From the IMG/VR virus record IMGVR_UViG_2537561977_000024: a stretch of 37,316 bases of DNA; one strand, written 5' to 3'. Each line of letters opens with the position of its first letter. The first letter of the stretch is position 1. The translations under genes were made by a program, and so were the position numbers. This stretch comes from a virus. Its lineage: Duplodnaviria > Heunggongvirae > Uroviricota > Caudoviricetes. This document shows positions 1 to 36,272 of the stretch, piece by piece. The notes below the pieces were generated by a model, which worked only from the letters and a program-made list of their open reading frames with translations, made no database searches and was not told where the DNA came from.

Positions 1-258
1 ATGCAAACCGTTATTTTTGGTCGTTCGGGTTGCCCTTACTGTGTGCGTGCAAAAGATCTGGCTGAGAAATTGAGCAATGAACGCGATGATTTTCAGTATC
101 AGTATGTAGATATTCGTGCGGAAGGGATCACTAAAGAAGATCTACAACAAAAGGCAGGTAAACCCGTAGAAACCGTGCCGCAGATTTTTGTCGATCAGCA
201 ACATATCGGCGGCTATACCGATTTTGCTGCATGGGTGAAAGAAAATCTGGACGCCTGA
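1..258 (+). CDS. grxA: glutaredoxin 1
   Basis: 85-aa ORF with CPYC redox motif; matches E. coli GrxA as recalled; followed by a terminator. Confidence 0.93.
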   Translation: MQTVIFGRSGCPYCVRAKDLAEKLSNERDDFQYQYVDIRAEGITKEDLQQKAGKPVETVPQIFVDQQHIGGYTDFAAWVKENLDA

Positions 259-267
259 TCGTCTGAC

Positions 268-300
268 AAGCCCTCGCGTTGAGGGCTTTACTGATTTTTT
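268..300 (+). terminator. rho-independent terminator downstream of grxA
   Basis: GC stem aagccctc/gagggctt with 5-nt loop, then T-run at 295-300. Confidence 0.55.
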
Positions 301-665
301 CTGTGCTGTGGTTTAAACAAACTACTGATAAATAAGAAACACAGTGCCCCCAGCGCACACCAGAACACCGCGCTTAGTAACCATGCCAGCTCTTGCCAGA
401 ATGAGCGCGTCGGTGAAAAAAACAGCCGCATAATGAGCATTGAACAGGGTGCCGCCAGCATTGCGCCAAATAGAGGTTTCAGGACTTCTCTACGCTGTGA
501 AAAGAAACTGGCAACTGCTCCAGGAAGAATGAAAAACAGCAAGCCGATTTCAGGATGCCCGGCAGCCCGAAAAGCGCCTTTCATGTGCGTCGCCAGAAAA
601 AGGCACACCACAATGAAGAGGACAAAACAGCAGATTGCCCCCGCCCAACGTTGTTTATGTTTCAC
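288..665 (-). CDS. ybjM: inner membrane protein YbjM
   Basis: 125-aa hydrophobic ORF in the conserved position between grxA and ybjL. Confidence 0.8.
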   Translation of the reverse strand: MKHKQRWAGAICCFVLFIVVCLFLATHMKGAFRAAGHPEIGLLFFILPGAVASFFSQRREVLKPLFGAMLAAPCSMLIMRLFFSPTRSFWQELAWLLSAVFWCALGALCFLFISSLFKPQHRKNQ

Positions 666-934
666 TCGTTCCTCCTGACACTGCGTCTATCGAACACATT
701 TTTCGCCAGTGTGGCGTTCAGTAAGATAAAGCCGCTTCGCATTCCATGCTAATATAGGCCAACGCAATTCATATAGCCGTTGATACCTAATGTGATTACA
801 CTAGTAAAATATATTGTTACTTTACTATCGTTTAGGTGCGCTGAATGAATCTGCGCCCTGAATTCTGGTAAAAAACATTATCGTAAATTACCATTTCTTT
901 CAACAGCTTACTAGTAAACAAGAAGTTAGCCTCC

Positions 935-2620
935 GTGAATATAAACGTCGCCGAATTGTTAAATGGGAATTACATTCTGTTATTATTTGTGGTCCTCGCG
1001 CTTGGGCTATGTCTCGGAAAGTTACGACTTGGTTCGATCCAACTGGGTAATTCCATTGGCGTTTTAGTCGTATCGCTGTTATTAGGCCAACAACATTTCA
1101 GCATTAACACCGATGCGCTTAATCTTGGCTTTATGCTGTTTATTTTCTGCGTCGGGGTCGAAGCCGGACCGAACTTTTTTTCCATTTTTTTTCGCGATGG
1201 GAAAAATTACCTAATGTTAGCACTGGTGATGGTTGGCAGTGCGCTGGTGATCGCCTTAGGGTTAGGTAAGCTGTTTGGCTGGGATATTGGCCTGACGGCC
1301 GGTATGTTAGCAGGCTCTATGACGTCGACACCGGTTCTGGTCGGTGCTGGCGATACACTGCGTCATTCCGGCATGGAAAGCAGGCAGCTCTCACTGGCAC
1401 TGGATAATCTGAGCCTCGGGTATGCCTTAACCTATTTAATCGGTCTGGTGAGTTTGATTGTTGGTGCGCGTTACTTGCCGAAATTGCAGCATCAGGACTT
1501 ACAGACCAGCGCCCAGCAAATCGCCCGCGAACGTGGCCTGGACACTGATGCCAACCGTAAGGTTTATTTACCGGTGATCCGCGCCTATCGCGTCGGCCCG
1601 GAGCTGGTGGCCTGGACCGACGGCAAAAATCTGCGTGAACTGGGTATTTATCGACAAACCGGCTGCTACATTGAACGTATTCGACGTAACGGGATTCTGG
1701 CAAATCCAGACGGTGATGCCGTGCTACAAATGGGCGATGAAATAGCGTTGGTAGGCTATCCCGACGCCCATGCCCGACTCGATCCCAGCTTCCGTAACGG
1801 TAAAGAAGTTTTCGATCGTGACCTTCTCGACATGCGTATCGTCACTGAAGAAGTGGTCGTTAAAAACCATAACGCTGTAGGTAAACGTCTCGCACAACTG
1901 AAGTTGACCGATCACGGTTGCTTCCTTAACCGCGTCATTCGTAGCCAGATTGAGATGCCGATAGATGACAACGTCGTGCTTAACAAAGGTGACGTTTTAC
2001 AAGTCAGCGGTGATGCCCGTCGCGTAAAAACCATCGCCGATCGCATCGGCTTTATCTCGATTCACAGCCAGGTCACTGACCTGCTGGCATTTTGCGCCTT
2101 CTTTGTTATTGGGCTGATGATCGGGATGATCACCTTCCAGTTCAGCACATTCAGTTTCGGCATGGGGAACGCTGCCGGGTTGTTATTCGCCGGAATTATG
2201 CTGGGCTTTATGCGTGCTAACCACCCGACCTTCGGTTACATTCCGCAAGGTGCATTAAGCATGGTGAAAGAGTTCGGCTTGATGGTGTTTATGGCAGGCG
2301 TTGGTCTGAGCGCCGGTAGCGGTATTAATAACGGCCTGGGCGCGATTGGCGGTCAGATGTTGATTGCCGGATTAATTGTCAGTCTTGTGCCCGTGGTTAT
2401 CTGTTTCTTGTTCGGTGCTTATGTATTGCGAATGAACCGCGCACTGTTGTTCGGCGCAATGATGGGCGCACGCACCTGCGCGCCGGCAATGGAGATCATC
2501 AGTGATACAGCTCGCAGTAACATCCCTGCGCTGGGCTATGCGGGCACCTACGCAATCGCCAACGTCCTGCTGACGCTGGCAGGGACAATCATCGTCATGG
2601 TATGGCCAGGATTAGGATAA
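935..2620 (+). CDS. ybjL: putative AAE-family transporter YbjL
   Basis: 561-aa ORF with two membrane domains flanking central soluble (TrkA-C-like) region; matches E. coli YbjL in length and N-terminus. Confidence 0.88.
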
Positions 2621-2732
2621 AACTGAAGTTGCCCTGAAAATGAAATTTTTTTGCACAACCGCAGAACTTTTCCGCAGGGCATCAGTCTTAATTAGTGCCA
2701 CTGCTTTTCTTTGATGTCCCCATTTTGTGGAG

Positions 2733-3164: not shown

Positions 3165-4265
3165 TCATTCCATTTCGAAATCATCAATCCTCACTTCAAG
3201 CTCCAGACTGGTTGTAAAACCGTTATCGGGGCTGACGGTATGCGTCAGAGTCGTAATGGTCCATTCCGCATCATCTATCGGCTGTTTAAAGCCACTGACT
3301 TTCACTGGCATTTCCGTGTAGAGATCTGCCCGACCTTCAGCCAGTTGTAGCGAGAATGACGCAACGCCGCGTTGCAGGCGTTCCCACTGCATTTTCGCCG
3401 CCCGTTCGGCGTTGCTCCGGTTGGCATAGGTGCGATTAAGTACCAGCACGTTTTCATCTGTACCCACCAGGTAATCGCCCTGCTTCGCTTCCGGCTCTTT
3501 CTTCTGCTTCTTAGTCCTGCGCTTACGCTTCACCGTGGTGCTTTCATTCTTCGCGGGTTCGCGGGTATGCAACCAGCTGGCAATTACGCCCGTGTAGGCT
3601 CCGCGATCTGCCAGGGTAAAGCGGTGACTGTCGCCGTCCTTACGTGTGATAGTGATAACCGGTAGTGGTTTACCGCTGGCGCTTTTACTCTGTCCCTGCC
3701 GGATGAATAACAGATTGCCATTTTTCACCGACGCAATAGCACCGTACTGGCGCGCCAGCCGCATCAGAAAACTGCCGTCACTCTCATTGGTCTGGTCTAT
3801 ATGTTCCACGGGTTTATCTGACAGGTCTTTACCCAATGCCATCTTCAGTTTGTGCCGCACAGCTATTTCCTTCACCACTTCCCCGACGGTGGTCTTGTGC
3901 CACGACTTTTCACGGCGGGTATTCAGCGTTTCACGAAAATCAGCACTTCGCGCCCGGATAGTCAGGCGGTCCGGTGCGCCAGTGTGTTCAATCTCGTCCA
4001 CCGTGAATGCCCCTTTCGGGAAAAGCGGCTGCCCCTTCCAGCCCAGCGCCAGCGTAATAACCGCACCACGGCGCGGCAGCACGATTTTTCCGTCGGCGTC
4101 GTCCAGCTCCAGATCAAGCTGGTCCGCTTCAAAGCCCCGATTGTCCGTCAGCGTCAAACTCATCAGGCGGTTATCCAGCACAGTGGTGATATCCCTGCCC
4201 TCAATACTGATGCTGAATGCGGGAGTTTTGTTGCCTTTGTTAAGCAGTTCAGAGCTGAAATTCAT
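3165..4265 (-). CDS. D: P2 gpD-like tail protein
   Basis: 366-aa ORF in conserved position and order; length like P2 D. Confidence 0.85.
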   Translation of the reverse strand: MNFSSELLNKGNKTPAFSISIEGRDITTVLDNRLMSLTLTDNRGFEADQLDLELDDADGKIVLPRRGAVITLALGWKGQPLFPKGAFTVDEIEHTGAPDRLTIRARSADFRETLNTRREKSWHKTTVGEVVKEIAVRHKLKMALGKDLSDKPVEHIDQTNESDGSFLMRLARQYGAIASVKNGNLLFIRQGQSKSASGKPLPVITITRKDGDSHRFTLADRGAYTGVIASWLHTREPAKNESTTVKRKRRTKKQKKEPEAKQGDYLVGTDENVLVLNRTYANRSNAERAAKMQWERLQRGVASFSLQLAEGRADLYTEMPVKVSGFKQPIDDAEWTITTLTHTVSPDNGFTTSLELEVRIDDFEME

Positions 4266-4747
4266 GACAGCAGCCCTCCCACCGTTTTACTGATATCGCT
4301 TAAGGCAGACGTTGCTGTGTCCTGCAGATTATTCAGTTGCGCACTGAGATCACCGAATATATCGGACAGGGATTCATCCACCCGTTTGAGCGACAGGGTG
4401 AACTCAATCCGGCGCGGCCTACCGTCGCGGAAAAACTCCGTTTTAGTCTGATTCAGTCCCTCAATCACATACATGCCATAAATCGTGCCACTGCCTTCAA
4501 TCAGGGGCCATGCTTTCCCCTGTTCTGCCATCTGCTCCAGTGCCAGCAACGACAGCCTGCCACCTGTTATCTCCGGCATAAGAACACCGGAAAGCGTCAG
4601 CATGTCGTTGTCCGGTCCCAGAAACTGCGTGGACGGACGTCGGTTTACCCGGCTGTTTGCCGCATGTCGCCAGCTGCGTTGATACTGCAGCTCCTGATAC
4701 GGCACGGTGCGCAGCATAAACACGTACAATCCCAGCACCATCATCAT
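4262..4747 (-). CDS. U: P2 gpU-like tail protein
   Basis: 161-aa ORF overlapping D start by 4 bp; synteny. Confidence 0.85.
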   Translation of the reverse strand: MMMVLGLYVFMLRTVPYQELQYQRSWRHAANSRVNRRPSTQFLGPDNDMLTLSGVLMPEITGGRLSLLALEQMAEQGKAWPLIEGSGTIYGMYVIEGLNQTKTEFFRDGRPRRIEFTLSLKRVDESLSDIFGDLSAQLNNLQDTATSALSDISKTVGGLLS

Positions 4748-7700
4748 GCGTCGTATCCCCCCTGATCGCTGTAGTTACTCCTGGCTTTTGCCTTCAGCCT
4801 GCGTTCACGTTCATCAAGCTGGCGGGCCACCTCCCGCGCAATATCCTGCGCACTTTGTCCTGGCTGTGTCTGGATGATGATCTGCGTCGGTGCTTCAATC
4901 CGGTAAATGGGCGGCACAGTAGCTGCACGACTCACCATCGCTTCACCGCCTTTTGCGGGAAGCGCCAAAGGATGCAACGGTGGAAGCTCTGCTGGCGCGG
5001 CAGCAACACCCATCATTCCGGCGACAACGGCAGCCAGTGCAGCTGTATTTCTCCGGCTGGTCACGTTTGCCGGGCCGTTAACAATTTCCGGCCCGTTTTC
5101 ACCGACGATGCCAAACTGCCCGCGCGGGATATAGCCGCCGCTGTCATACATCCCCGCAAAGCCATATCCCCATGACGGAAAATCACCCGATGGCATCATC
5201 ACTTTACCGTCTGCATTCACCGTCGCAGGTTGCTGACGCGTCACGCTTTCCGGCAGTTTCGCCTTTGCAGCCTCTTTACTGACAATGCCGAGTTTCTCCA
5301 GCAACCAGGAAACGCCGGATTTCAGGGAGTCCAGCGGATGCATGACCATATTCAGCCCTTCTGCCAGTGCCTCCCCGAATCGTCGCCCCATTGCCGCTGC
5401 GCTCTGCAGTTCGGCAGAGGTCGACTTAACGGGCGTCAGCAGATCAGTAAACCAGCCCCACAGCGCCTGCACTTTGTCGCCAATCCACTGGAACACGGGC
5501 TTAAGCGGTTCGAACGCTGCACTGATGGGACCTGCCGCCGCTTTGAATCCTTCCACCACGCCACCGAGAAATGCGGTGATGGGTTGCCAGTATTTCCAGA
5601 CAACCAGCGCCACGCCCGCCAGTGCAGTAACCACAAGACCTATCGGACTGAGCAGAGCACCTAACAGACCAGATATGGCATACAGGGCAACGCGCAGCAT
5701 CGCCAGTGGACCAGATGCCAGTACTCGCAGCACCGTGCCTGCGGCGGCCAGTCCACCGCGCAGTACCGCCAGAGGATTCATAAACATCACAGCAACAGCA
5801 CGTAAACCGGATAATCCAGACCGCAAAAGTGCAACCGGCGCACCTGCTACAGTTTTCAGGACATTTTCCGTCAGTGATGCCGTGCGGCGCAAAGACGACA
5901 ACGGCGCAGTAAGTAAACCTGCGGCGTTGCCCGATGAAGCAAGCCCGCGTCGCAGCAGTGCCAGTGGCGCGCCAGCCAGCCAGGACAACGCGCTGCTGGT
6001 TCGAGTTACTGCTGCCGTAACGGAAGATAACGTTTTGATACCCAACACAGAGAATCCCAGACGGATCACTGCCAGCGGCCCCAGCACTGCAGCCAGCGCC
6101 ACCGCTAAGGTGCCGAGGCCCACGGTAACGGCAGCCACCACAGCGGCTACTTTCATCAGTGTGCCCGTCAGTTCCGGGTTAGCTTCCACCCAACGACGCG
6201 ACGCTCCCGTGACGCTTTTCACCATGTACAGAATATCCATCAGCGGCTGGCGCAGCGTTTCGCCCAGGCTGCTGAAGGTGTTCTGCGCTCCGGTTTTGAC
6301 CAGCAACCACTGCGCAGAAAGTGAGTCCTTGTTAATGTCGGATTCTTTCTGCATGGAGCCGAGCGCATCATTGCCCGCTGTCAGTTTTAACTGGCGCTGC
6401 AGTTCCGGCAGGTTGTTTGCCAGTTTCGCCGCGTCATCGCCAAACTCTTTACCAAACAACATGGTCATGGCAGACAGACGTTTATCCTGCGGCAGTGCGT
6501 TCACCTTCTCCAGTACGCGCTGGATAGTTCCCATCGCATCCTTCGTCATCTGCTTTTCAATCACTTCAGGGTTGAGTTTCAGCAGATTCATTCCTTCAAA
6601 GAAACTCTTGCTTTGCATGGTGGCAATAGACAATTCACGCACCATCGCGTTGGCTGCACTGGCTGCAACCTCCGGCGCAGCACCCAGTGTCAGGAAGGTG
6701 GAACCCAGCGCCGCCGCTTTACGATAATCCAGACGATCAGCCACACCGCCCAGGCGTTGCATGACATCAATGATGTCTGCCCCTTTCGACATGGCGTTAT
6801 CATCCAGATAGTTCAGCGCATCACCGAGCTGTTCAATATTGCGGGTAGGGATTTTGTAGAGCTGGGCGATTTTGCCCAGACTTTCTGACAGTTCATCCGC
6901 TGGCAGCTCAAAGGCTGTTGCCGCCTTTGCTGCCGTGCTGGCGAAGGCCAGCAGATCACGTTTCTGGTCTTCCCAGCTGTCGTCAGGGTTTGCGACGTTC
7001 ATGCGCGCACCACCTTCAACCAGTGCAGCGAAATCCACCGCACCGTTTTCCATCGGCAACTGTTCGCTGGCAGCCTTGATGGCATCCTGCATTTCATAAA
7101 AACGTGCAGTGCGGTTGCCATTATCGTCACGCAGACCATTGACCTGCTTTGCCACACCTTTCATGGCATCTTCCATGCTGGTATAGCTTTTTACTGCCGC
7201 CATCACTGGTGCGCCCATTGCCAGCCCTGCAGCCGTGGTGGTGGCTCCGGCACCTGCAATCCGATCCCTTACTTCAAGACGCCTGGCGTAAGCCCCTCGG
7301 GCGGCGTGCATTTTTCGCTGTTGCTCCCCGACACGTCGTAACCTCGCTTCCTGCTCAGAAAGCTGCCTGTTATAACGCATCGTTTCACGGGTAATGCGGG
7401 CCGTCGCACTGGCACCATCATTAGCTGAAATACCAGCACGATAAAGTTCTGCACGCACAAGCGCCGTCTGCTGCTGCAGCTTTTTCTGGCGTTCTTCCAG
7501 GCGCTGAACAGCCAGCCGTTGACGGCCCAGAGCAACAACCTGACGTTGCGAAGGCGGCCCCATCGCTCCCAGTTCCTGACTGAGCAAATTTGCACGCTGG
7601 CGGGCATAGCTCAGCCTGTCGCCTAATTTCTGATTTTCTGCCTGCAGCTTTCGGAAGCTGTCCAGACTGCTCCCGGCCTGATCAAGCTGCTTTATTGCAT

Positions 7701-7833
7701 CGCGGGATTTTTTGACAGCAGCAGCCAGTTCTCTTGAACTGGCCTGCGCAGATCGAAATGGGCGGGTGAGCTTGTCAACCGCATTAAGAATGACCTGCAG
7801 ACGCAGGTTATTGTCACTCATGGCTGGCCCCAC
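4744..7833 (-). CDS. T: tail tape measure protein
   Basis: 1029-aa Ala/Leu/Gly-rich ORF with coiled-coil N-region between E/E' and U. Confidence 0.9.
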   Translation of the reverse strand: MGPAMSDNNLRLQVILNAVDKLTRPFRSAQASSRELAAAVKKSRDAIKQLDQAGSSLDSFRKLQAENQKLGDRLSYARQRANLLSQELGAMGPPSQRQVVALGRQRLAVQRLEERQKKLQQQTALVRAELYRAGISANDGASATARITRETMRYNRQLSEQEARLRRVGEQQRKMHAARGAYARRLEVRDRIAGAGATTTAAGLAMGAPVMAAVKSYTSMEDAMKGVAKQVNGLRDDNGNRTARFYEMQDAIKAASEQLPMENGAVDFAALVEGGARMNVANPDDSWEDQKRDLLAFASTAAKAATAFELPADELSESLGKIAQLYKIPTRNIEQLGDALNYLDDNAMSKGADIIDVMQRLGGVADRLDYRKAAALGSTFLTLGAAPEVAASAANAMVRELSIATMQSKSFFEGMNLLKLNPEVIEKQMTKDAMGTIQRVLEKVNALPQDKRLSAMTMLFGKEFGDDAAKLANNLPELQRQLKLTAGNDALGSMQKESDINKDSLSAQWLLVKTGAQNTFSSLGETLRQPLMDILYMVKSVTGASRRWVEANPELTGTLMKVAAVVAAVTVGLGTLAVALAAVLGPLAVIRLGFSVLGIKTLSSVTAAVTRTSSALSWLAGAPLALLRRGLASSGNAAGLLTAPLSSLRRTASLTENVLKTVAGAPVALLRSGLSGLRAVAVMFMNPLAVLRGGLAAAGTVLRVLASGPLAMLRVALYAISGLLGALLSPIGLVVTALAGVALVVWKYWQPITAFLGGVVEGFKAAAGPISAAFEPLKPVFQWIGDKVQALWGWFTDLLTPVKSTSAELQSAAAMGRRFGEALAEGLNMVMHPLDSLKSGVSWLLEKLGIVSKEAAKAKLPESVTRQQPATVNADGKVMMPSGDFPSWGYGFAGMYDSGGYIPRGQFGIVGENGPEIVNGPANVTSRRNTAALAAVVAGMMGVAAAPAELPPLHPLALPAKGGEAMVSRAATVPPIYRIEAPTQIIIQTQPGQSAQDIAREVARQLDERERRLKAKARSNYSDQGGYDA

Positions 7834-8250
7834 TTCTCTGAATCGCTTTATACCGCCATTCCAGCACTTCGGTCAGCGGCATAACGTCAGTAACGGATGG
7901 CGGCCAGTGAAAGATGGTGGCGATATCAGCCACCAGATCGTCAACCGTCAGGCTGTCGGTAAACCGGCAAGCACCGACTTCTTCAACAAAAAAGTGACAA
8001 CCTCAACCGACATGGCAGTGAGATCTGCCGGGTCCATCTCTGCAATTTCCTGTGCAGTCAGTGCCGGACTGGAGATGCGGGGGATCACGGTCATCATCGC
8101 GTTCACATCCATATCCATAATGGCCTGCAGGCGTGTGCCGCGCAGCGCACCGGACTGCGGTTTACGCAGCACAATTTCGGTGATTTCTGTTTTACCGCGC
8201 TTGATGGGGGTATCCAGTTGAATAGTCTTTTCAGTCTGCTTATCGCTCAT
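7826..8250 (-). CDS. tail assembly chaperone E+E' fusion product made by -1 frameshift
   Basis: Shifting -1 at TTTTTTG continues the ORF to a TGA overlapping the T start codon, as in P2 E/E'. Confidence 0.6.
7948..8250 (-). CDS. E: tail assembly chaperone E
   Basis: 100-aa ORF upstream of T; ends just after slippery site. Confidence 0.8.
   Translation of the reverse strand: MSDKQTEKTIQLDTPIKRGKTEITEIVLRKPQSGALRGTRLQAIMDMDVNAMMTVIPRISSPALTAQEIAEMDPADLTAMSVEVVTFLLKKSVLAGLPTA
7987..7993 (-). promoter_or_regulatory. programmed -1 ribosomal frameshift slippery heptamer T6G
   Basis: minus-strand TTTTTTG inside codons ACT TTT TTG of gene E. Confidence 0.6.
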
Positions 8251-8304
8251 TTTGCTGTCCTGTAAATTGGGTTCTGGCGCGGTATCCCGCGCCGTTCAGA
8301 TACA

Positions 8305-8820
8305 TCAGAGGCCGAGGGCGTTACGGTGCGCTTCCATCAGGTCCACACCGTCCACAATTTCCACCATGTTGATAAGGTCCACTTCATAGAGCACCTCACC
8401 ATTTATAGTCAGCTTCGCGTAGCTGTTGGTACTGGTCACTTTGGTGGTGTTGCTTTCGCCCGTCTTCCACTCGCCGGAATCCACTTCTTTGTGACGTCCA
8501 CGCACCACAAGCTCCACGGCCTGCACTTCCCCGGTATCGTCACGCTGGATAGAGCCGGTAAAGCGCAACTGGATACCATCCACCGTGGCTTTGCCCATCT
8601 GCTTAAACAGCAGCAGTTCAGTACCACCAATGGAAAATTCCGTATCCAGTGCGCCGTCATCCAGCCCCAGATCCACATCCACTGCACCCGGCATTCCGCC
8701 GCCGCGATACTTCTCATATTTGCGGGTAAATTTCGGCAGCGTCAGCGACTCAACGATCCCCTGCCAGTTGTTCCCGTCATTAAACAGGTTCAGGTGTTTT
8801 AATTTGCGTGGTAAAGCCAT
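8305..8820 (-). CDS. FII: tail tube protein FII
   Basis: 171-aa ORF, same length class and position as P2 FII. Confidence 0.88.
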   Translation of the reverse strand: MALPRKLKHLNLFNDGNNWQGIVESLTLPKFTRKYEKYRGGGMPGAVDVDLGLDDGALDTEFSIGGTELLLFKQMGKATVDGIQLRFTGSIQRDDTGEVQAVELVVRGRHKEVDSGEWKTGESNTTKVTSTNSYAKLTINGEVLYEVDLINMVEIVDGVDLMEAHRNALGL

Positions 8821-8829
8821 GTTGTCCCC

Positions 8830-10002
8830 TTACGCGCTGACCTGGCTGGAGAAATTCACCAGGTACTGATCGGTGATGCGCTGACGCAGCATCAGGTTTT
8901 CAAGTGGCGGCACTGGCGTGTAGTCGTAGTCGATGGTGAGTTTTCCGGCTTTCAGCGTGTCTTTGTCGTTCACCGACTCATCCAGCCAGCAATCACCACC
9001 AATGAGATAGCCCTGACTGACCAGGCTGCGCATTTTGGCGCGGATACCCTCGATAATGTCGCGGGCCAGCGACGGATTCAGCGGTTTATCCACCGCCCAC
9101 ATGTGCGCTTCTGCCATCGTGTCCGTCAGCACCTGCGCCGTGCGGGTGTAGTTTTCGAAGGCAAAGAGCGGGTCATCACTCAGGCAGCGGGAACCCCAGA
9201 AGCGAAAACCGTCTTTGCGGATAAGGGTGGTGACGTCGTTCTGGTTCAGCAGTCCCGCATCGGTTGCCGGGTCCTGCAGATCCCAGAACACATCAGCAGA
9301 AATTCCGGTGACACCGTTAACGCCCACGTTGGACAGGCTTTTGTGCCATCCGGTCTGCTCGTCAATTTTGGCGCGCAGACCAAGCGCACGGGCGGTGGCA
9401 TAAGCCGTTGCTTCGGCATTCAGCACCGTGTCCCAGCCAGTAAAGTCGGGCCAGATCAGCATTCCTTCACGCTGACTGAAGTTTTCACGGTAAGTGATTG
9501 CTTCCTGCACCGTCTTGCAACCATACGCTGACAGGTAAGCAAATCCACGCAGGCTTTGCGCCACGCTCAGCAACTCAGTAGCTACCGCCTTCGTGTCGTG
9601 ACCTGGCACGCCGAGAATGCGCGGTTTAACGCCGAGCTGTGACTGGGCAGATAACAGGGCTTTCATGCCTGTTTTTTTACCTTCAGCGGTCACTGCTCCG
9701 ATGATATTGGTCGTGGTTTCTTCTTCCGTTTCACCCTGCGGCACACGCACAACAACGGTCACGGGTTTTGCCTGGTCAGCGATGGCATCCAGCGAACGAG
9801 CCAGCGTGCCTGACTCACCCGCTTTACCGCTGGCAGTCAGCACATCCGTGATCAGCACGGGTTTATTAAGAGGAAACATTTTTGCATCGGCATCATCGCC
9901 CGTGCAGACCATACCCACGATGGCGGTGCTCACCGTGGTAATGGATCGGGTGCCTTCGTTGACTTCAACAACGCGCACCCCGTGGTGGTAATCCTGAGCC
10001 AT
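8830..10002 (-). CDS. FI: contractile tail sheath protein FI
   Basis: 390-aa ORF, position and length like P2 FI. Confidence 0.9.
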
Positions 10003-10078
10003 AGTGGCGAACCTCCTGATTGGATTAGGCTTCGCCCTATGTTGAAGTGATTGTGCCTGACAAACAGCTAAGCGCAGT

Positions 10079-10096
10079 TGTACCGTTATTCACACA
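10079..10096. promoter_or_regulatory. TGT-N12-ACA late-promoter activator site (PF-like)
   Basis: TGTACCGTTATTCACACA ~85 bp upstream of FI start; same dyad motif recurs upstream of V and in O/P region. Confidence 0.5.
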
Positions 10097-10144
10097 AAAT
10101 GACGGTATTTGTCTGCTTTCAGGGATAATCAAAATAAAGCTGAT

Positions 10145-10711
10145 TCAGGGAGATTTATTGTTCTTATTTGCCGGAAATTTTCGATAAATGGTAGAAACGC
10201 CTACATCAAAAATCAGTGCAATACGCTGTCTTGATTCTCCGGCCTCGAGTAAACGCCCAATCTGTGCCCACTGTTCGCTGGTCAACTTAGGACGGCGTCC
10301 ACCTACTCTGCCTTTAGCACGAGCTGCAGCCAGCCCCGCCCTGGTACGTTCAACTATCAGTTCGCGTTCCATTTCAGCCAGGGCACCCATGACATGAAAA
10401 AAGAAACGGCCCATTGGGGTACTGGTATCAATACTGTCAGTCAGGCTTCGGAAATTCACGCCACGCTGGCGCAGCTCTTCTATCAGCGTAACAAGATGCC
10501 GCATACTGCGCCCCAGTCTGTCCAGCTTCCAGACAACCAGCGTGTCTCCTGCCGATAGTGTCCTGAGCAGCTTTTTCAGCCCCGGTCTGTCGGACTTGGT
10601 GCCACTGATTTTATCCTCAAAAATCCGCTCACATCCCGCACAGTTCAGTGCATTGCGTTGCAAATCGGTGTTCTGGTCATTTGTTGACACGCGTACATAG
10701 CCAATAAGCAT
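10145..10711 (-). CDS. Gin/Pin/Cin-family serine DNA invertase
   Basis: N-terminus MLIGYVRVSTNDQNTDLQRNAL... with catalytic Ser and C-terminal HTH; near-identical in pattern to Gin/Pin as recalled. Confidence 0.9.
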   Translation of the reverse strand: MLIGYVRVSTNDQNTDLQRNALNCAGCERIFEDKISGTKSDRPGLKKLLRTLSAGDTLVVWKLDRLGRSMRHLVTLIEELRQRGVNFRSLTDSIDTSTPMGRFFFHVMGALAEMERELIVERTRAGLAAARAKGRVGGRRPKLTSEQWAQIGRLLEAGESRQRIALIFDVGVSTIYRKFPANKNNKSP

Positions 10712-10738
10712 GATCATCCCCCTGAATAAAAACCGGAG

Positions 10739-11236
10739 ATGATGCCAGTTAGCCGTTATCTCTGCATTTTCATAAACGTTCGTTTGGGAGCAGGTGCTCC
10801 AGCTATCGGAATTCCGTTCTTCTGGCCGTCGTCGGCAATGCCGAATACTGTCATGACAGAATGGGCCGATATGGTGTTTTTGAAGTTCAATGGGGCGACG
10901 TTCTCAGCAGCGACATATCCGATACTGGCCCTGGTGCTCCCAGGCCTGACGTTGCCTGACGCTCGCGGCGAATTTCCACGTATCTGGGATGATGGGCGTG
11001 GCGTGGATAACGGGCGTGCATTGCTAAGTTCCCAGATCGCAACCAGCATTGGTCGTTACGTTGGGACCGATGGTAATACAGCTTTTATTGGTATCAATAA
11101 TACTGATACTACGGGTTCCGGATACGCCAGTTGGTCGAGAGTATCAGCAACAAGTACAGGGGTGTTTGGGCAAACAGAATACCAGGGGGTTCGTCCTCGT
11201 AATATCGCATTCAACTTTCTTGTAAGGGCTAAATAA
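10739..11236 (+). CDS. silent alternative tail-fibre C-terminal cassette (Sv'-like)
   Basis: ORF with tail-collar-like motif RGEFPRIWDDGRGVDNGR; opposite strand to H; begins at the left recombination site in frame with H. Confidence 0.65.
   Translation: MMPVSRYLCIFINVRLGAGAPAIGIPFFWPSSAMPNTVMTEWADMVFLKFNGATFSAATYPILALVLPGLTLPDARGEFPRIWDDGRGVDNGRALLSSQIATSIGRYVGTDGNTAFIGINNTDTTGSGYASWSRVSATSTGVFGQTEYQGVRPRNIAFNFLVRAK
10768..10791. repeat. gix-like invertase recombination site (left)
   Basis: Minus-strand TGCTCCCAAACGAACGTTTATGAA; inverted copy of site at 12592-12615; resembles gix/hix dyad. Confidence 0.6.
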
Positions 11237-12604
11237 TGAAACCAGTACTTGACGACAATGGACTGGCTACCTATGCCGGAAATATTCGCTGTTATTACTA
11301 CGATGAATTAACAGGTGAATACACTGGTTGGTCAGATGAATTTATTAATGTAGGTGTGAGCATGCCCGGAAATTCTACAGATATTGACCCAGGAGAAGAT
11401 ATATCGGGCAAAGTGTCAGTATTTAGCGGTGACGGATGGAATTGGCAGGAAGACCATCGAGGCAATACTGTCTATTCAACAGAAGAAGGAGCCGCCAGCG
11501 TAGTTGACTACATCGGTGAGATTAAAGAAGGATTTACCGCAATTGCGCCGGGAACAAAATACGATAAATGGGACGGGGAAAAGTGGGTAACGGATAGTGA
11601 GGCTCAGCACATAGCCGATGTTGCAACCGCCGAAGCGGAAAAACAGGCCAGAATTGACCAGGCCAATAACTACATTAACAGCAGACAATGGCCCGGCAAA
11701 GCCGCTTTAGGCCGCCTGAGTGACGCAGAAAAAGAGCAATATAATCTGTGGTTGGATTATCTCGATGCGCTGGAAGCCGTGGACACCTCCAGTGCACCAG
11801 ATATTAACTGGCCTACTCAGCCTGATAATCGGGAGCAGGCTGAGTAAATGCGGCGCCATCGTATAAATACCCCGACTCAACGTCATCAGGACAATTAACC
11901 CAAACCAACGAGGGGTGGAAACGCCCCTCCGGATCTACATCTACGGTTTCTTCAACGCGAAAGTTTTCTTTGCCTTCAATTTTTTAATTCTTGCCCATGT
12001 CATTTAATCACCACTCAATAATCACAATACCATTTTTACCAGAGCCGGATTTATTACTACTGTTAGCAGCAATCCCACCACCACCGCCCCCATAACCAGT
12101 CGCATCCAGACCCACCCCTGTAGATCCTCGGCCTCCGGGGCCGCCACCGTTGCCGCCGCAATTTGCCGAGTTGGCTGAACCGTCATCCCCCCAACCCAAC
12201 CCCTGATTAACATCTCCGCCAACACCGGCTCCCGACGAACCACCGGATGTTGATGTGCCGCCATACCCATACTGACCACCAGTCGCGGAGAGATAAGAAC
12301 CAAAAGAAGATGACCCACCGGATGCGCCATTACCTGTAGTTACGCCAGCACCAGCAGAGCCAACGGTTACCGTAACGCTTGAAACGTCTGTGAGATCGAG
12401 AAGCAATTTCGAATATCCGCCACCGCCGCCACCGCCCCCGCGCTTTGTTGTATCGGTAGTCGACCCGCCAGACGCTCCACCACCAATTACTGTCACCTGG
12501 CATTTTCGCCCTTGTTGGAGTGCCTCAGGAACGTTCCAGTTAGATACTCCAGGGGTGTTGAAAACAACTATGTTTTGCAGGCCAAAGGCCGATGCTCCTA
12601 AACC
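10780..12604. other. invertible tail-fibre DNA segment (G-segment-like), ~1.8 kb
   Basis: Bounded by inverted gix-like sites; adjacent invertase; two alternative fibre tips in opposite orientations. Confidence 0.6.
11236..11847 (+). CDS. tail fibre assembly chaperone (U'/G-like) for the silent cassette
   Basis: 203-aa ORF immediately after the Sv'-like cassette; position and length typical. Confidence 0.75.
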   Translation: MKPVLDDNGLATYAGNIRCYYYDELTGEYTGWSDEFINVGVSMPGNSTDIDPGEDISGKVSVFSGDGWNWQEDHRGNTVYSTEEGAASVVDYIGEIKEGFTAIAPGTKYDKWDGEKWVTDSEAQHIADVATAEAEKQARIDQANNYINSRQWPGKAALGRLSDAEKEQYNLWLDYLDALEAVDTSSAPDINWPTQPDNREQAE

Positions 12605-13654
12605 AAGGTATGCGAGAAGACCAGCTACATCCTTTCCACTCAAATTGGTAAGCGTATTGTCCAGCGGTTGTTTACCTGCCAGCGCATTAAGCATTGTCGT
12701 GGCAAAGTTCGGATCATTCCCCAGTGCCGCCGCCAGTTCGTTCAGTGTATCCAGTGCAGCAGGTGCAGAACCCACCATTCCTGCAATCGCCGATTTCACA
12801 AAAGCCGTAGTGGCAATCTGTGTATTGTTGACCGACTGCGCCGCCGTGGGGGCTGTTGGCGTTCCGGTGAGTGCCGGACTCGACAACGGTGCTTTTAGTG
12901 CCAGCGCATTGTTAATGGTGGTACTGAAATTCGGATCATTGTTAATGGCTGCGGCTATTTCTTTCAGCGTGTCCAGCGTGGCTGGCGCACCATTAATAAG
13001 GGCCGTCAGTGCCGCCTGTACAAACGCAGTGGTCGCAACCTGCGTGGTATTATTCCCCGCCGCTGGCGTTGGCGCTTTGGGGGTTCCGGTAAATGTCGGG
13101 CTGGCTTTTGGCGCGTACTGTGAATGCGGGTCCGGTGCGGCAAGATGTTTTGCCATCTGATCATCCGCGTACACCTTCAGCTCCAGTGCCTTGTCATCCA
13201 CATACTTGCGGGTTGCCAGCACTACAGCAGGGTCGATTTTCAGGGTGATATTGTCCGTGCTGCTGGTAATCAGCACCATGCGCACGGTCTGAGTGCGCCC
13301 GCTACCTTCAGCCAGTTGCGGCTTATAGCTTTCCGGGCAGTTGCCTACGGCAATCAATGCCCCGGACTCATCAAACAGACCCACTTCACGTATCCACCAA
13401 CCACCCTCATTTTCAGGGATCACCTGTTCAGCAATAATCTGGCTGCTGTTCTGCGGGTCGATATAAAGCATATTCAGCGCAGCCCGGCGTTTCTCATTTA
13501 CCAGTGCCGTCTGCTTTGCGTCCGGCGTCGGCAATGCTCCGCCGCCATCGCCCACCGCCATATGGGTAATTTTTAGCGGCACACCGAGCGCGGCGGCGCT
13601 GGCAAGTTTCGCCGCGCCAATATCCGTCAGCAGGGTATAAAATTTTGTGCTCAT
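12008..13654 (-). CDS. H: tail fibre protein H with glycine-rich C-terminal tip
   Basis: N-terminus MSTKFYTLLTDIGAAKLA... like P2 gpH; C-terminal ~195 aa after the recombination site is Gly/Ser-rich. Confidence 0.85.
   Translation of the reverse strand: MSTKFYTLLTDIGAAKLASAAALGVPLKITHMAVGDGGGALPTPDAKQTALVNEKRRAALNMLYIDPQNSSQIIAEQVIPENEGGWWIREVGLFDESGALIAVGNCPESYKPQLAEGSGRTQTVRMVLITSSTDNITLKIDPAVVLATRKYVDDKALELKVYADDQMAKHLAAPDPHSQYAPKASPTFTGTPKAPTPAAGNNTTQVATTAFVQAALTALINGAPATLDTLKEIAAAINNDPNFSTTINNALALKAPLSSPALTGTPTAPTAAQSVNNTQIATTAFVKSAIAGMVGSAPAALDTLNELAAALGNDPNFATTMLNALAGKQPLDNTLTNLSGKDVAGLLAYLGLGASAFGLQNIVVFNTPGVSNWNVPEALQQGRKCQVTVIGGGASGGSTTDTTKRGGGGGGGGYSKLLLDLTDVSSVTVTVGSAGAGVTTGNGASGGSSSFGSYLSATGGQYGYGGTSTSGGSSGAGVGGDVNQGLGWGDDGSANSANCGGNGGGPGGRGSTGVGLDATGYGGGGGGIAANSSNKSGSGKNGIVIIEW
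12592..12615. repeat. gix-like invertase recombination site (right), inside H coding sequence
   Basis: TGCTCCTAAACCAAGGTATGCGAG; inverted relative to 10768-10791; encodes LGLGA in H matching RLGAGA at the other site. Confidence 0.6.
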
Positions 13655-14256
13655 GGATTCACTCTCATTGTGTCAATAACATGGACCGCCCCGCCTTCAT
13701 GCGCGGTGCCGCCGGAAATAATTGTTTCGTTGATATACGGATAGATCGTGATTTCTTCGCCAAGATAACTGGCGGCTCCCACCCAATGCGGACCGCTGGT
13801 CTGCAGATTGATGGACATGCCGATCATGTGACGGCTACATGGTTTGGCATCGCTTATCAGTCGCTCAAGTTCCAGATAGGTATCTTCAGTGATGCCCTGG
13901 TCCTGCACACCAATGTCCAGACGAAACGTGCCCGGTGTTTCTCCGGTCTGCCACCACTCAATAATGCGGATCAGGAAGCCGAACGGCTCCACCACCCGCC
14001 GTACGGCACTGGTGGTTCCTTTGTGCTGATGAATATAAAAAGCATCCTTCACTACCTGGCGTTTGACGCTTTCTGTCCAGCCCTCGTCCCAGCGATCCAC
14101 AGAGAACGCCCAGGCGAGATAAGGCAGGAAACTGACCGGACAGGTTGCCGGATTCCACAAGTCACGCAGTGACACCTGCAGATCAGAAATCCCGCTACAG
14201 GTTTGCGCCAGTCGGCGCTCCAGTGGCGTTGAACCCGGTGGCAGCAGACTATTCAT
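13651..14256 (-). CDS. I: baseplate assembly protein I
   Basis: N-terminus and WNP...LPYLAWAFSVDRWDE motif like P2 gpI. Confidence 0.85.
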   Translation of the reverse strand: MNSLLPPGSTPLERRLAQTCSGISDLQVSLRDLWNPATCPVSFLPYLAWAFSVDRWDEGWTESVKRQVVKDAFYIHQHKGTTSAVRRVVEPFGFLIRIIEWWQTGETPGTFRLDIGVQDQGITEDTYLELERLISDAKPCSRHMIGMSINLQTSGPHWVGAASYLGEEITIYPYINETIISGGTAHEGGAVHVIDTMRVNP

Positions 14257-24933: not shown

Positions 24934-25674
24934 TTACTCAATAGGTTCAAACTCATCTTGAGGAATCAGCGTCGATTGACAGGCTTGGCTTAGTACCCCT
25001 GATAATTTACATAATAACCGATAGTTATGAGGAGCATCATCGCTAATCTTTTCGACCGTTAAAGTGATTGATTTTGGATCATCCAATAACATCTTCTTGA
25101 TGTCATTACTTAAATACCTAGGGCAGTAACCAACGATTTCAGCTGGTTTATCTGCACGAACGACAACAGCATCCCCATCGTATTCATTTTGAAGATCCAA
25201 GCAAAGACGCAAAATTTGCCCCGGTTTCAATTCAGATACACGAGCATTAGCTAAGCTATTCAAGTAACCAAGTCCATGTAAGAAGAAAAAATGCTCAAAG
25301 TTACCATCAGAATCAAAATCAATTTTTTTGAAAATCTGCAGCTGATCAGTGCTTCGTAAGCCTCCCGAGCGAGCAAGAATATCGATAGGATTTACCTTAT
25401 CTTCTTCAAATCCAAGCCATTTAATGAAACTCGGATACTCTGGACGTCTCGGTGATAAAAGGCGATTTTTAAAAAGAGGAAACAATTCTTCCGATACATA
25501 AGTTTCACGAACATCACTCATGCCGCTAAACTTTGTAAATTTAGAAGATTTAAGAGCACCTTTGGTATACCTGAAAACATACCCCGATTTGCGCTCTTGC
25601 AAGTTACCAACAACATGCCAGTCTCTGGTATCTGGTGCCTGCCATGCGACGTAAACGGAGTTTGTATTAGTCAT
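24934..25674 (-). CDS. HipS-like N-domain fused to C-terminal HIRAN-like domain
   Basis: N-terminal VGNL..FRY...LFPLFKNRLLSP resembles HipA N-subdomain; C-terminal LRLCLDLQNEYDGDAVVVRA...VGYCPRYLS..IKKMLL fits HIRAN consensus; start overlaps kinase stop (ATGA). Confidence 0.6.
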   Translation of the reverse strand: MTNTNSVYVAWQAPDTRDWHVVGNLQERKSGYVFRYTKGALKSSKFTKFSGMSDVRETYVSEELFPLFKNRLLSPRRPEYPSFIKWLGFEEDKVNPIDILARSGGLRSTDQLQIFKKIDFDSDGNFEHFFFLHGLGYLNSLANARVSELKPGQILRLCLDLQNEYDGDAVVVRADKPAEIVGYCPRYLSNDIKKMLLDDPKSITLTVEKISDDAPHNYRLLCKLSGVLSQACQSTLIPQDEFEPIE

Positions 25675-26585
25675 TCTAGTAACCTTCTGCGATTTTCCAT
25701 TACCATTAACGTTGCAAATCTACGTGCACTGTCGGATATACACGATGAAGGCACTTGGTTAAACACATCTGTAATGGAATCTTCTGTTAAAACGCTCAAC
25801 TTACCTAACCAATGGTCGCGAGCGGCAACTCTCCCTTCAACTGCATGTTGAAATGCTTCAACAGTCAGCAAGGGCTTTTTATCAGTTTTTGCTTTGAATA
25901 GCTCAGAGCGAGCTTTTCTTACAAAACATGGGATTTGTCGATTTTTATCTTTAGTATTAAGCCGTTCGTTACGCTCATCATCTAACATCTCCCTTCCTAA
26001 ACTAGCGGCATGATCGTATGTTGGACACAAAAACTGCTCACCAGTTTCATTGTTAAGCATGATTGCCCAATTTTCATGGTGGCGATCTTGATTACTCACA
26101 AGTGCATCGAGCATCAAATATCCACAAAATACATCTGCTGCATTTAGCCCGGTTAGATCATATACACTCGGAGGAGGCTTGATAGATTCCCTATCTAAAC
26201 AACCCAAGACCCTTGTGACAGTGTGTTCTCTGACCCTTACCGGCTTTTCCCCGGCTTGTAAAGGCCCAGGATAATCGAATGTCGAACTGTGAAGCACTTC
26301 ATTTCCCATTACCATCCGGAAACCAGATGGAATGATATTCTGAGTCACCACACCGAATCGACCATTGTATCGCGCCAAATCATAGCTAGCATGTGGAATG
26401 TTAAGCAAATGACATAACTCAGCAGCACACTTTTCAGACCAATGCTCGCCAGTACCTGGCCTAGAGTACTTAAACAACTGCAAATTTACAGTGTCATCGG
26501 AGAAATAGAACCAAAACTTCTCTTTGGTTCCTAACTGTTCAAGATCGTTAGCTACGGGGCTAAGCTCTACCAATTGGTATGGCAT
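25671..26585 (-). CDS. HipA-family Ser/Thr kinase core (HipT-like, lacks HipA N-subdomain)
   Basis: Gly-rich loop LGTKEKF at residues 18-24, catalytic VSNQDRHHENW (D167), PTYDHAAS (D191), with HipA-like spacing. Confidence 0.7.
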   Translation of the reverse strand: MPYQLVELSPVANDLEQLGTKEKFWFYFSDDTVNLQLFKYSRPGTGEHWSEKCAAELCHLLNIPHASYDLARYNGRFGVVTQNIIPSGFRMVMGNEVLHSSTFDYPGPLQAGEKPVRVREHTVTRVLGCLDRESIKPPPSVYDLTGLNAADVFCGYLMLDALVSNQDRHHENWAIMLNNETGEQFLCPTYDHAASLGREMLDDERNERLNTKDKNRQIPCFVRKARSELFKAKTDKKPLLTVEAFQHAVEGRVAARDHWLGKLSVLTEDSITDVFNQVPSSCISDSARRFATLMVMENRRRLLE

Positions 26586-27142: not shown

Positions 27143-27623
27143 ATGGCTACTACCAACTGTATTACTGTACTTACTGCTCGTGGTTTAACAGAGATTTTGA
27201 ACACAGGGGGAAGCCAAGCATGGAGACTTGACGCCAGCCATGCAGCTAAGCACGAATATTTAGTTTGTGTACAAAATTCGAGAAAGGACTGGGGATCACA
27301 AGAAGCAAAACATCATCATGCTTTTATGATCGGTCGAATCTCGGGAGTAAGCAGGGCTCCAGAAAACCCTAAACGCTGGATCATAAACATCAATTCTTAT
27401 GCTGAAATTGACATCCCAGGACAATGGGATGGCAATCGGAATCCCGTTTCTTATCGCAACCTCAAAGACATTGGCATTGAGGCTGACAAGTTGGAATTTA
27501 AAGCTCTTCCCAAATTAACCCCGACTAATTCGATTGTCGATCAAGCGGGTGATGAGTACGAAGAAGAAGAAGAAAATGTAGTTAAGCCGTTAACACTTCA
27601 GGAGGCAAAAGCAGGGCTAGCCC
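27143..27623 (+). CDS. hypothetical protein, 3' end replaced by IS insertion
   Basis: ORF after 550-bp AT-rich region; acidic DEYEEEEEN linker; reading frame runs into IS left end at 27624; original C-terminus continues after IS at 28927. Confidence 0.5.
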
Positions 27624-35161: not shown

Positions 35162-35306
35162 AAGGCAACATTCCTTCTAGATATGGCTTGTGGCGAGCCG
35201 TTGTTTGTCGTGATTAGTAGTGAAGGCTCCAAAAGAACACTTCCGGTTCAACTTTAAGATCGCTTTTGGAATCTATCAACGAATTTTGGATTTCTTTGGA
35301 GGACTT

Positions 35307-35876: not shown

Positions 35877-35892
35877 TACCGGGAGGAAAACT

Positions 35893-36084: not shown

Positions 36085-36272
36085 CTTTTGCTTTTATATC
36101 TGCGCCTAAAATAAAAATGAGCCGCAGGTTAACCGCAAAAATTACATGCTCACATAGCAAAAAGAATAGCCAACTTAATTATGGCTTCAGTGAGATGTAT
36201 GGTCGTAGGATTTCATACATTGACACTGGTTATACATACAGTGAAAATGCTCTCTACTGGAGGGCATTTTTT

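What the first reader, a model, noticed from the sequence alone, without database searches (positions are those of the whole stretch)
7826..8250. Conserved E/E' programmed -1 frameshift
The slippery heptamer TTTTTTG lies near the end of E, and the -1 frame continues to a stop that overlaps the tape-measure start codon. This is the standard tail-chaperone arrangement and confirms correct frame assignment in this region.
Basis: partly seen in the sequence, partly recalled or inferred. Interest (0 to 1): 0.2.

Follow-up and report, generated by a model that had tools for sequence, protein, structure and literature searches.

The report
P2-type tail chaperone E/E' frameshift

Summary
A 100-codon gene (8250..7948) lies between the tail-tube gene and the tape-measure gene and matches Pfam Phage_TAC_7. 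It carries T TTT TTG at 7993..7987, phased X XXY YYZ, 14 codons before its stop. The -1 frame opens 4 codons upstream of the site and runs 58 codons to TGA 7816..7814. That stop lies inside ATGAGTGA, where ATG 7821..7819 starts the tape-measure gene, the same junction type as in P2 (ATGAGTAA). The predicted 145-aa fusion aligns without gaps through the junction to P2 gpE+E' (48% identity, E 6.5e-52). Its -1 part matches Pfam Phage_P2_GpE (E 3.6e-18). An in-phase slippery heptamer followed by a 52-74 codon -1 frame is present in all 18 annotated phage and plasmid loci examined (17 Peduoviridae, one Vhmlvirus). It is also in 79 of 80 IMG/VR relatives, and about 1000 E. coli genomes carry the locus. 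Substitutions downstream favour third positions of the -1 frame. No conserved stimulatory RNA structure was found, as reported for P2. Already known; low interest.

The parts
7948..8250 (-). Gene E: tail assembly chaperone gpE, 100 aa, the zero-frame product
   Evidence: ORF. Pfam PF10109 Phage_TAC_7, E 1e-18, residues 9-88. Lies between the tube and tape-measure genes.
7987..7993 (-). Slippery heptamer T TTT TTG, phased X XXY YYZ in the E frame (codons 86-88: ACT TTT TTG)
   Evidence: offset 257, third codon position. Same heptamer and phase in P2. Sixteen of the other 18 annotated loci carry TTTTTTG; the rest have TTTTTTT, TTTTTTC or GGGAAAG. TTTTTTG in 78 and TTTTTTA in 1 of 79 IMG/VR relatives.
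7814..7990 (-). E' : -1 frame extension of 58 codons from the re-read TTT (7990..7988) to stop TGA 7816..7814
   Evidence: Pfam PF06528 Phage_P2_GpE, E 3.6e-18, on fusion residues 107-142. Third-position substitution bias and 60-91% aa identity in this frame against 29-71% in the other frames.
7814..8250 (-). Whole E+E' coding span; predicted fusion protein of 145 aa with junction ...VVTF|FVEEVG...
   Evidence: Gapless alignment to P2 gpE+E' (142 aa), 48.2% identity, E 6.5e-52.
8003..8005 (-). Last stop (TGA) of the -1 frame upstream of the slip site. With the E stop (7950..7948) it bounds a 52-nt window in which a -1 shift can give the fusion.
7814..7933 (-). The 39-codon GTG-started ORF that PGAP and some phage records annotate separately as 'GpE family phage tail protein'. 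Here it is read as the 3' part of E', not as an independent gene.
   Evidence: Annotations. It is the first possible start codon in the frame and has no Shine-Dalgarno match in the 20 nt upstream. The VDDL codons upstream of it are conserved.
4744..7821 (-). Gene T, tail tape-measure protein (1025 aa from ATG 7821). Its first 8 nt overlap the end of E' (ATGAGTGA).
   Evidence: Pfam PF10145 PhageMin_Tail. Same 8-nt overlap annotated in P2, L-413C and Wphi.
8305..8820 (-). Tail tube gene (P2 FII homologue), immediately upstream of E
   Evidence: Pfam PF04985 Phage_tube, E 6e-60.
8830..10002 (-). Tail sheath gene (P2 FI homologue)
   Evidence: Pfam Phage_sheath_1, Phage_sheath_1C and Gp18_domIII_N.
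3165..4747 (-). gpU (4747..4262) and gpD (4265..3165) homologues, completing the FETUD-type operon
   Evidence: Pfam Phage_P2_GpU, E 8.6e-45, and Phage_GPD, E 9.8e-27.

Best explanation
This is the programmed -1 ribosomal frameshift site of the tail-chaperone gene pair E/E' of a P2-like (Peduoviridae, Elveevirus/Felsduovirus-type) prophage of E. coli.

Most ribosomes translate E (8250..7948) to its stop and make gpE, 100 aa. A minority pause with tRNA-Phe and tRNA-Leu on TTT TTG (7992..7987). Both tRNAs slip back one base onto T TTT TT, and decoding continues in the -1 frame for 57 more codons to TGA 7816..7814. This gives gpE+E', 145 aa.

By analogy with P2 gpE/gpE+E' and lambda gpG/gpGT, the shared N-terminal part binds and coats the tape-measure protein encoded just downstream. 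The frameshift-only C-terminal domain recruits the tube protein. The fixed low shift frequency sets the ratio of the two chaperones, and neither ends up in the virion.

Shown here: the anatomy, the phase, the homology of both parts, selection on the -1 frame, and conservation of the site. Inferred: that slippage occurs, its frequency, and the chaperone roles.
For: - The heptamer is in X XXY YYZ phase, 14 codons before the E stop.
- The -1 frame opens only 4 codons upstream and runs 62 codons in all. It has no start codon before GTG 7933, and that GTG has no SD.
- The -1 product matches Pfam Phage_P2_GpE (E 3.6e-18) and E matches Phage_TAC_7 (E 1e-18).
- The fusion aligns gaplessly across the junction to P2 gpE+E' (E 6.5e-52). 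The P2 record annotates a -1 frameshift at the equivalent base.
- All 18 annotated relatives, from Escherichia, Klebsiella, Salmonella, Yersinia, Burkholderia, Ralstonia, Stenotrophomonas, Vibrio, Mannheimia, Acidovorax and Pseudomonas hosts, carry an in-phase slippery heptamer followed by a 52-74 codon -1 ORF. One of them has the non-homopolymeric GGGAAAG.
- tblastn finds the two halves in two frames in nearly all of the 416 phage records that match.
- Beyond the E stop, substitutions are biased to -1 frame third positions: 4/2/13 against ST15phi14.1, 6/1/11 against RE-2010 and 15/9/23 against L-413C.
- Gene order is sheath, tube, E/E', T, U, D.
- PMC3091744 states that in P2 the -1 shift at TTTTTTG yields the 91-aa E and the 142-aa E+E' (citing Christie 2002 and Xu 2004). 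PMC5009743 describes the lambda G/GT chaperone mechanism.
Against: There is no direct evidence of frameshifting for this prophage: no protein, ribosome-profiling or reporter data. No significant stimulatory RNA structure lies downstream (z -1.1 for 131 nt; z -0.9 for the local hairpin), and there is no Rfam match. This is also the reported situation in P2 (PMC3091744). Gene-calling pipelines annotate E' as a separate small gene.
Confidence: 0.93

Rival explanations
1. E' is an independent small gene, translated from its own start codon (GTG 7933) into a 39-aa protein as database annotations show. The heptamer would then be incidental.
For: PGAP and several phage records annotate a separate 120-nt CDS named 'GpE family phage tail protein'. 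The Pfam GpE model starts at that residue.
Against: - No Shine-Dalgarno match lies upstream of the GTG (GCCTGACGGTTGACGATCTG).
- The 19 codons between the slip site and the GTG are open.
- The conserved VDDL/VEDx motif lies upstream of the GTG.
- The heptamer is retained in phase in every lineage examined.
- Several relatives have no equivalent start codon and are annotated as joins.
- P2 E' is reported to be made only as an extension of E (PMC3091744, citing Christie 2002).
Confidence: 0.03
2. The shift is made at the RNA level. RNA polymerase slips on the T6 run and adds one U to a fraction of transcripts, which are then translated normally into E+E'.
For: The site is a homopolymer run in most lineages: T6 here, T7 in ST15phi14.1 and Smp131. 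One relative (L019) has an extra T in its DNA, which shows that the run is prone to length change.
Against: - A run of 6 is shorter than the runs of about 9 typically used for efficient bacterial transcriptional slippage (own knowledge of the field).
- The heptamer keeps X XXY YYZ phase in all 18 annotated loci and in 79 of 79 IMG/VR relatives with a separate E ORF. Transcriptional slippage does not require any phase.
- The Mannheimia phage uses GGGAAAG, a classical tandem-slippage site with no long run.
Confidence: 0.035
3. Chance: an accidental heptamer and an accidental open -1 frame with no second product.
For: TTTTTTG occurs 18 times in the window, and 6% of -1 frame positions in real genes are open for 58 codons or more.
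Against: The -1 translation has a Pfam hit at E 3.6e-18. The site is conserved across genera. The -1 frame shows a purifying-selection signature.
Confidence: 0.005

Closest known systems
Bacteriophage P2 genes E and E+E' (FETUD tail operon; Christie et al. 2002, J Bacteriol 184:6522, cited in PMC3091744)
   Same: - Same heptamer TTTTTTG in the same phase.
- Same 58-codon -1 extension.
- Same 8-nt ATGAGTxA overlap with gene T.
- Same flanking genes (FI, FII upstream; T, U, D downstream).
- The fusion is 48% identical and gapless through the junction.
   Different: - E is 100 aa rather than 91 aa: 3 extra N-terminal residues and a longer, unrelated zero-frame tail after the slip site.
- About 52% of residues differ.
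- This prophage belongs to the Elveevirus/Felsduovirus-like branch, 98% DNA identity to Escherichia phage 500465-1 and Klebsiella phage KP12 and 97% to Cartapus, not to Peduovirus.
Escherichia phage Cartapus / 500465-1, Klebsiella phage KP12, and the prophage present in about 18% of complete E. coli genomes
   Same: 95-99% DNA identity over the whole E/E'/T junction. The heptamer and the -1 frame are identical.
   Different: Those records annotate E' as a separate 39-aa CDS rather than as a ribosomal-slippage join.
Phage lambda gpG / gpGT tail assembly chaperones (Levin 1993; Xu, Hendrix, Duda 2004, 2013, 2014; summarised in PMC5009743)
   Same: Two proteins share an N-terminus through a -1 frameshift near the 3' end of a small gene located between the major tail (tube) gene and the tape-measure gene. 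The chaperone mechanism is inferred to be the same.
   Different: - No detectable sequence similarity. Lack of similarity between P2 and lambda tail proteins is reported in the literature (own recollection of the Christie 2002 abstract).
- Lambda uses G GGA AAG.
- Lambda has a non-contractile tail.
E. coli dnaX gamma/tau -1 frameshift
   Same: Tandem -1 slippage on an X XXY YYZ heptamer in an enterobacterial host.
   Different: dnaX depends on an upstream SD-like element and a strong downstream stem-loop. Here no significant downstream structure was found, and only an untested SD-like GAGG lies 7 nt upstream.

Membership tests
P2-type gpE / gpE+E' tail assembly chaperone pair (Peduoviridae) | Small gene located between the tail tube gene and the tape-measure gene of a contractile-tail cluster | tested here: met
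   Order is sheath 10002..8830, tube 8820..8305, E 8250..7948, T 7821..4744, U, D, each with the matching Pfam family. P2 has the same order.
P2-type gpE / gpE+E' tail assembly chaperone pair (Peduoviridae) | Zero-frame product homologous to gpE (Pfam PF10109 Phage_TAC_7) | tested here: met
   E 1e-18, 67.5 bits against a cut-off of 25, covering profile positions 1-78 of 79.
P2-type gpE / gpE+E' tail assembly chaperone pair (Peduoviridae) | -1 frame extension homologous to E' (Pfam PF06528 Phage_P2_GpE) | tested here: met
   E 3.6e-18, 65.2 bits against a cut-off of 23, on residues 107-142 of the predicted fusion. 60% aa identity to P2-type E' (L-413C, Wphi) in the part that lies only in the -1 frame.
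P2-type gpE / gpE+E' tail assembly chaperone pair (Peduoviridae) | Slippery heptamer (TTTTTTG in P2) phased X XXY YYZ inside the overlap of the two frames, near the 3' end of E | tested here: met
   7993..7987, in phase. It lies inside the 52-nt overlap window 8002..7951. P2 is identical.
P2-type gpE / gpE+E' tail assembly chaperone pair (Peduoviridae) | E' frame lacks its own credible translation initiation site | tested here: met
   The first start codon in the frame is GTG 7933, 19 codons after the slip site, with no SD-like sequence in the 20 nt upstream.
P2-type gpE / gpE+E' tail assembly chaperone pair (Peduoviridae) | The E+E' fusion is actually produced, at about 10% in P2, and both products are essential for tail assembly | not testable with these tools
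   This needs reporter fusions, mass spectrometry or genetics. It is reported for P2 only (Christie 2002, cited in PMC3091744; the 10% figure is from my recollection of that abstract).
General dsDNA-phage tail assembly chaperone frameshift (Xu, Hendrix, Duda 2004; lambda G/GT type) | Two overlapping ORFs between the major tail gene and the tape-measure gene, joined by a conserved programmed frameshift | tested here: met
   The mechanism is described in PMC5009743.
Frameshift sites with a 3' stimulatory RNA structure (dnaX / IS-element type) | Stable, conserved stem-loop or pseudoknot 5-9 nt downstream of the heptamer | tested here: not met
   - The 131-nt fold has z -1.1.
- The local hairpin GUCGGU..ACCGAC, 8 nt downstream, gives -9.6 kcal/mol with z -0.9.
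- It is not conserved in P2, KS14, Smp131 and others.
- There is no Rfam hit.

The most novel reading that the evidence does not exclude
The Elveevirus/Felsduovirus branch may tune its E:E+E' ratio with its own stimulators, which have not been described for P2. One candidate is an SD-like GAGG(U) 7 nt upstream of the heptamer. The other is a hairpin (GUCGGU..ACCGAC) 8 nt downstream that shows one U-A to C-G swap in ST15phi14.1 and L019. Related to this, the T8 variant L019, in which E and E' form one ORF, could be a viable natural phage that makes only the fusion by standard decoding.
Probability: 0.12. Interest if true: 0.25.

Novelty: already known. Interest (0 to 1): 0.07.

Why it matters
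Its value is mainly for annotation. It confirms the frames of the tail cluster in this window. It also shows that the common database annotation of E' as a free-standing 39-aa 'GpE family' gene is biologically incomplete, because the true product is a 145-aa slippage fusion. It adds no new biology: the site, its phase, its products and its role were established for P2 in 2002 and generalised to tailed phages in 2004.

Tried and rejected
- Downstream stimulatory RNA structure. Folding of 7880-8010(-) and of the 37-nt segment after the heptamer gave energies within the shuffle distribution. Per-locus folds in 18 relatives showed no common structure. Rejected as a conserved element.
- Rfam scan of 7600-8400 at E <= 1 found nothing.
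- PDB sequence search with the 145-aa fusion at E <= 1 found nothing, so no structural argument could be made.
- Christie et al. 2002 (PMC135442) is not held in the library. It is cited only through PMC3091744 and from memory.
- Independent initiation of E', transcriptional slippage and chance were all considered and rejected as the main explanation (see rival explanations).
- My first P2 fusion construct dropped one Phe and produced a spurious 1-residue gap. This was corrected.
- A gix/hix-type crossover sequence from memory was searched in the window to explain the inverted tail-fibre cassette. No match was found with up to 3 mismatches. An inverted-repeat search of 10000-14000 found nothing convincing.

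Full report
**Observation.**
The feature lies on the minus strand. A 100-codon ORF runs from ATG 8250 to TGA 7950..7948. Inside it, TTTTTTG occupies 7993..7987 at offset 257 of the ORF. The zero frame therefore reads ACT TTT TTG, the canonical X XXY YYZ phase, after codon 86 and 14 codons before the stop.

Reading from the slipped A-site codon (TTT, 7990..7988), the -1 frame stays open for 58 codons and ends at TGA 7816..7814. In this frame the previous stop is TGA 8005..8003, only four codons before the site. The first possible start codon is GTG 7933, 19 codons after the site, with no Shine-Dalgarno-like sequence upstream.

The tape-measure gene starts at ATG 7821..7819, so the junction is ATGAGTGA with an 8-nt overlap. 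The E' stop begins 2 nt after the ATG rather than sharing bases with it.

**More than chance?**
The heptamer by itself is not rare: 18 copies on the two strands of the window. In-phase XXXYYYZ heptamers occur at only 11 of 4997 codon positions in the window's well-supported genes. Only 6.2% of -1 frame positions in those genes remain open for 58 codons or more, with a median of 11.

The decisive evidence is homology. The zero-frame product matches Pfam Phage_TAC_7 (E 1e-18). The -1 frame part of the predicted 145-aa fusion matches Pfam Phage_P2_GpE (E 3.6e-18, residues 107-142).

**Context.**
The flanking genes are:
- tail sheath, 10002..8830
- tail tube, 8820..8305
- tape measure, 7821..4744
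- gpU, 4747..4262
- gpD, 4265..3165

Each carries the corresponding P2-type Pfam family. This is the order of the P2 FETUD operon. The window is a P2-like prophage inserted next to grxA-ybjM-ybjL of E. coli. Over this region it is 98% identical to Escherichia phage 500465-1 and Klebsiella phage KP12, and 97% identical to Escherichia phage Cartapus (Peduoviridae, Elveevirus). The E/E'/T junction is present in 996 of 5426 complete E. coli genomes (977 with at least 80% of the query covered), mostly at 95-99% identity.

**Comparison with P2 and relatives.**
In the P2 record, E (91 aa) and E+E' (142 aa) are annotated with a -1 frameshift at the G of the same heptamer, which is in the same phase. 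T starts 8 nt before the E+E' stop (ATGAGTAA). The window's fusion aligns to P2 gpE+E' without gaps through the junction: VVTFFVEEVGA against VVGFFVAELGA, 48.2% identity over 141 aa, E 6.5e-52.

tblastn of the fusion finds 416 phage records, and nearly all of those listed match in two pieces, that is in two frames. I examined 18 annotated loci:
- 16 are Peduoviridae phages.
- One is the Vhmlvirus Vibrio phage vB_VpaM_MAR.
- One is an E. coli plasmid-borne copy.
- Their hosts are Escherichia, Klebsiella, Salmonella, Yersinia, Burkholderia, Ralstonia, Stenotrophomonas, Vibrio, Mannheimia, Acidovorax and Pseudomonas.
- Every one has an in-phase slippery heptamer near the end of E, followed by a -1 ORF of 52-74 codons.
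- The heptamer is TTTTTTG in most. It is TTTTTTT in Smp131, TTTTTTC in vB_VpaM_MAR and GGGAAAG in the Mannheimia phage.

Among 80 IMG/VR relatives, 78 carry TTTTTTG and one carries TTTTTTA, all with the 100 + 58 codon layout.

The E' core motif V[DE]D..AD[IV]A..FHW.P...L.E...WR..A..RS is conserved family-wide. Beyond the E stop, nucleotide differences from relatives are biased to third positions of the -1 frame: 4/2/13 against ST15phi14.1, 6/1/11 against RE-2010 and 15/9/23 against L-413C. Amino-acid identity is 60-91% in that frame, against 29-71% in the other two. The -1 frame is therefore a protein-coding frame under purifying selection that has no start of its own.

**Mechanism.**
The best explanation is tandem -1 ribosomal slippage of the P- and A-site tRNAs from TTT TTG to T TTT TT. 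It would yield mostly gpE and a minority of gpE+E'. PMC3091744 summarises the P2 case: the -1 shift at TTTTTTG gives E of 91 aa and E+E' of 142 aa, with no downstream RNA structure in P2 or in KS5, KS14 and KL3. PMC5009743 summarises the lambda G/GT model:
- The shared N-terminal part coats the tape-measure protein.
- The frameshift-only domain binds the tube protein and initiates its polymerisation.
- The ratio of the two products is critical.
- Neither product is in the virion.

That frameshifting occurs here, and at what frequency, is inferred and not shown.

**Stimulators.**
No significant structure lies downstream. The 131-nt fold has z -1.1. A local hairpin GUCGGU..ACCGAC sits 8 nt downstream, at -9.6 kcal/mol and z -0.9. 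It shows one U-A to C-G swap in ST15phi14.1 and L019 but is absent in P2, KS14, Smp131 and others. There is no Rfam match. An SD-like GAGG or AAGG lies 7 nt upstream of the heptamer in the enterobacterial, Ralstonia and Acidovorax members. It coincides with the conserved residues [EK]-V-V, so it cannot be separated from coding constraint here.

**Rivals.**
- Independent initiation of a 39-aa E' at GTG 7933, as PGAP and some phage records annotate. This is disfavoured by the missing SD, by the conserved codons upstream of the GTG, and by the universally retained in-phase heptamer.
- Transcriptional slippage on the T6 run. This is disfavoured by the strict phase conservation and by the non-homopolymeric GGGAAAG variant.
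- Chance. This is excluded.

**Verdict.**
The feature is a textbook, already-known element. The only practical point is that the usual automated annotation splits E' off as a separate small gene.

Noticed in passing
L019:748-755 (IMGVR_UViG_2734481921_000002): A relative with 79% aa identity has T8 at the slip site where its closest annotated relative (ST15-OXA48phi14.1, L007) has T7. E and E' therefore form one uninterrupted ORF encoding exactly the predicted fusion. This is either a homopolymer sequencing error or a natural fused variant.
   Followed up: partly
window 7814-7933 (-): RefSeq/PGAP, across about 1000 E. coli genomes, and several phage records annotate E' as a separate 39-aa GTG-started 'GpE family phage tail protein' rather than as a ribosomal-slippage join. 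No SD precedes that GTG.
   Followed up: yes
window 8001-8004 (-), 7 nt upstream of the heptamer: An SD-like GAGG(T) sits 7 nt 5' of T TTT TTG. The same (A/G)AGG is at that spacing in P2, L-413C, Wphi, 186, RE-2010, ST15phi14.1, RsoM1USA and Alfacinha3, but not in KS14, Smp131, vB_VpaM_MAR or SEN5. It is confounded with the conserved residues [EK]-V-V.
   Followed up: partly
window 7956-7979 (-): A hairpin GUCGGU(N12)ACCGAC lies 8 nt downstream of the heptamer. It shows a U-A to C-G swap in ST15phi14.1 and L019 and a G-C to G-U change in one IMG/VR relative. It is not more stable than shuffles (z -0.9) and is not conserved in P2-type phages.
   Followed up: partly
window 10145-11847: A serine invertase (Resolvase + HTH_7, 10717..10145, minus strand) sits next to a plus-strand cassette. 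The cassette holds a 165-aa ORF with no Pfam match (10739-11236) and a tail-fibre assembly protein (Caudo_TAP, 11236-11847). It is oriented opposite to the tail-fibre gene 13654..12008. This looks like an invertible host-range segment of the Mu G / P1 C type. No gix-like site or clear inverted repeat was found.
   Followed up: partly
window 12008-13654 (-): The tail-fibre protein has a P2-type N-terminal collar domain (Phage_tail_fib) and a C-terminal glycine-rich domain (Gly_rich_2). No tail-fibre assembly gene follows it on the same strand.
   Followed up: no
window 24934-26585 (-): Two overlapping genes beside the portal gene encode a HIRAN-domain protein (246 aa) and a HipA_C-like protein (304 aa). 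They match both components of the PADLOC candidate defence system PDC-M03 (B: E 6.8e-93; A: E 2.1e-122). This may be cargo in a P2-type defence hotspot; the hotspot reading is from my own knowledge and was not tested.
   Followed up: partly
window 27644-28885 (-): A DDE_Tnp_1 transposase (413 aa) lies inside the prophage, between the defence-like cargo and replication gene A (29828-32242). This suggests an IS insertion. A 179-aa ORF with no family match lies at 27143-27682.
   Followed up: no
window 1-2700 and 35220-37316: The left end of the window is E. coli chromosome (grxA, ybjM, ybjL; 100% identical to several strains). The prophage runs from about 2.7 kb to the right end, where a CI-type repressor (35220-35876) and an integrase ORF that reaches the window end (36117-37316) lie. 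No tRNA gene is in the window.
   Followed up: partly
L013 (Mannheimia phage vB_MhM_2256AP1) and L011, L012: Some relatives use other heptamers at the homologous position: GGGAAAG (the lambda G/GT type), TTTTTTT and TTTTTTC. The slip-site sequence is therefore replaceable while its phase and position are kept.
   Followed up: yes
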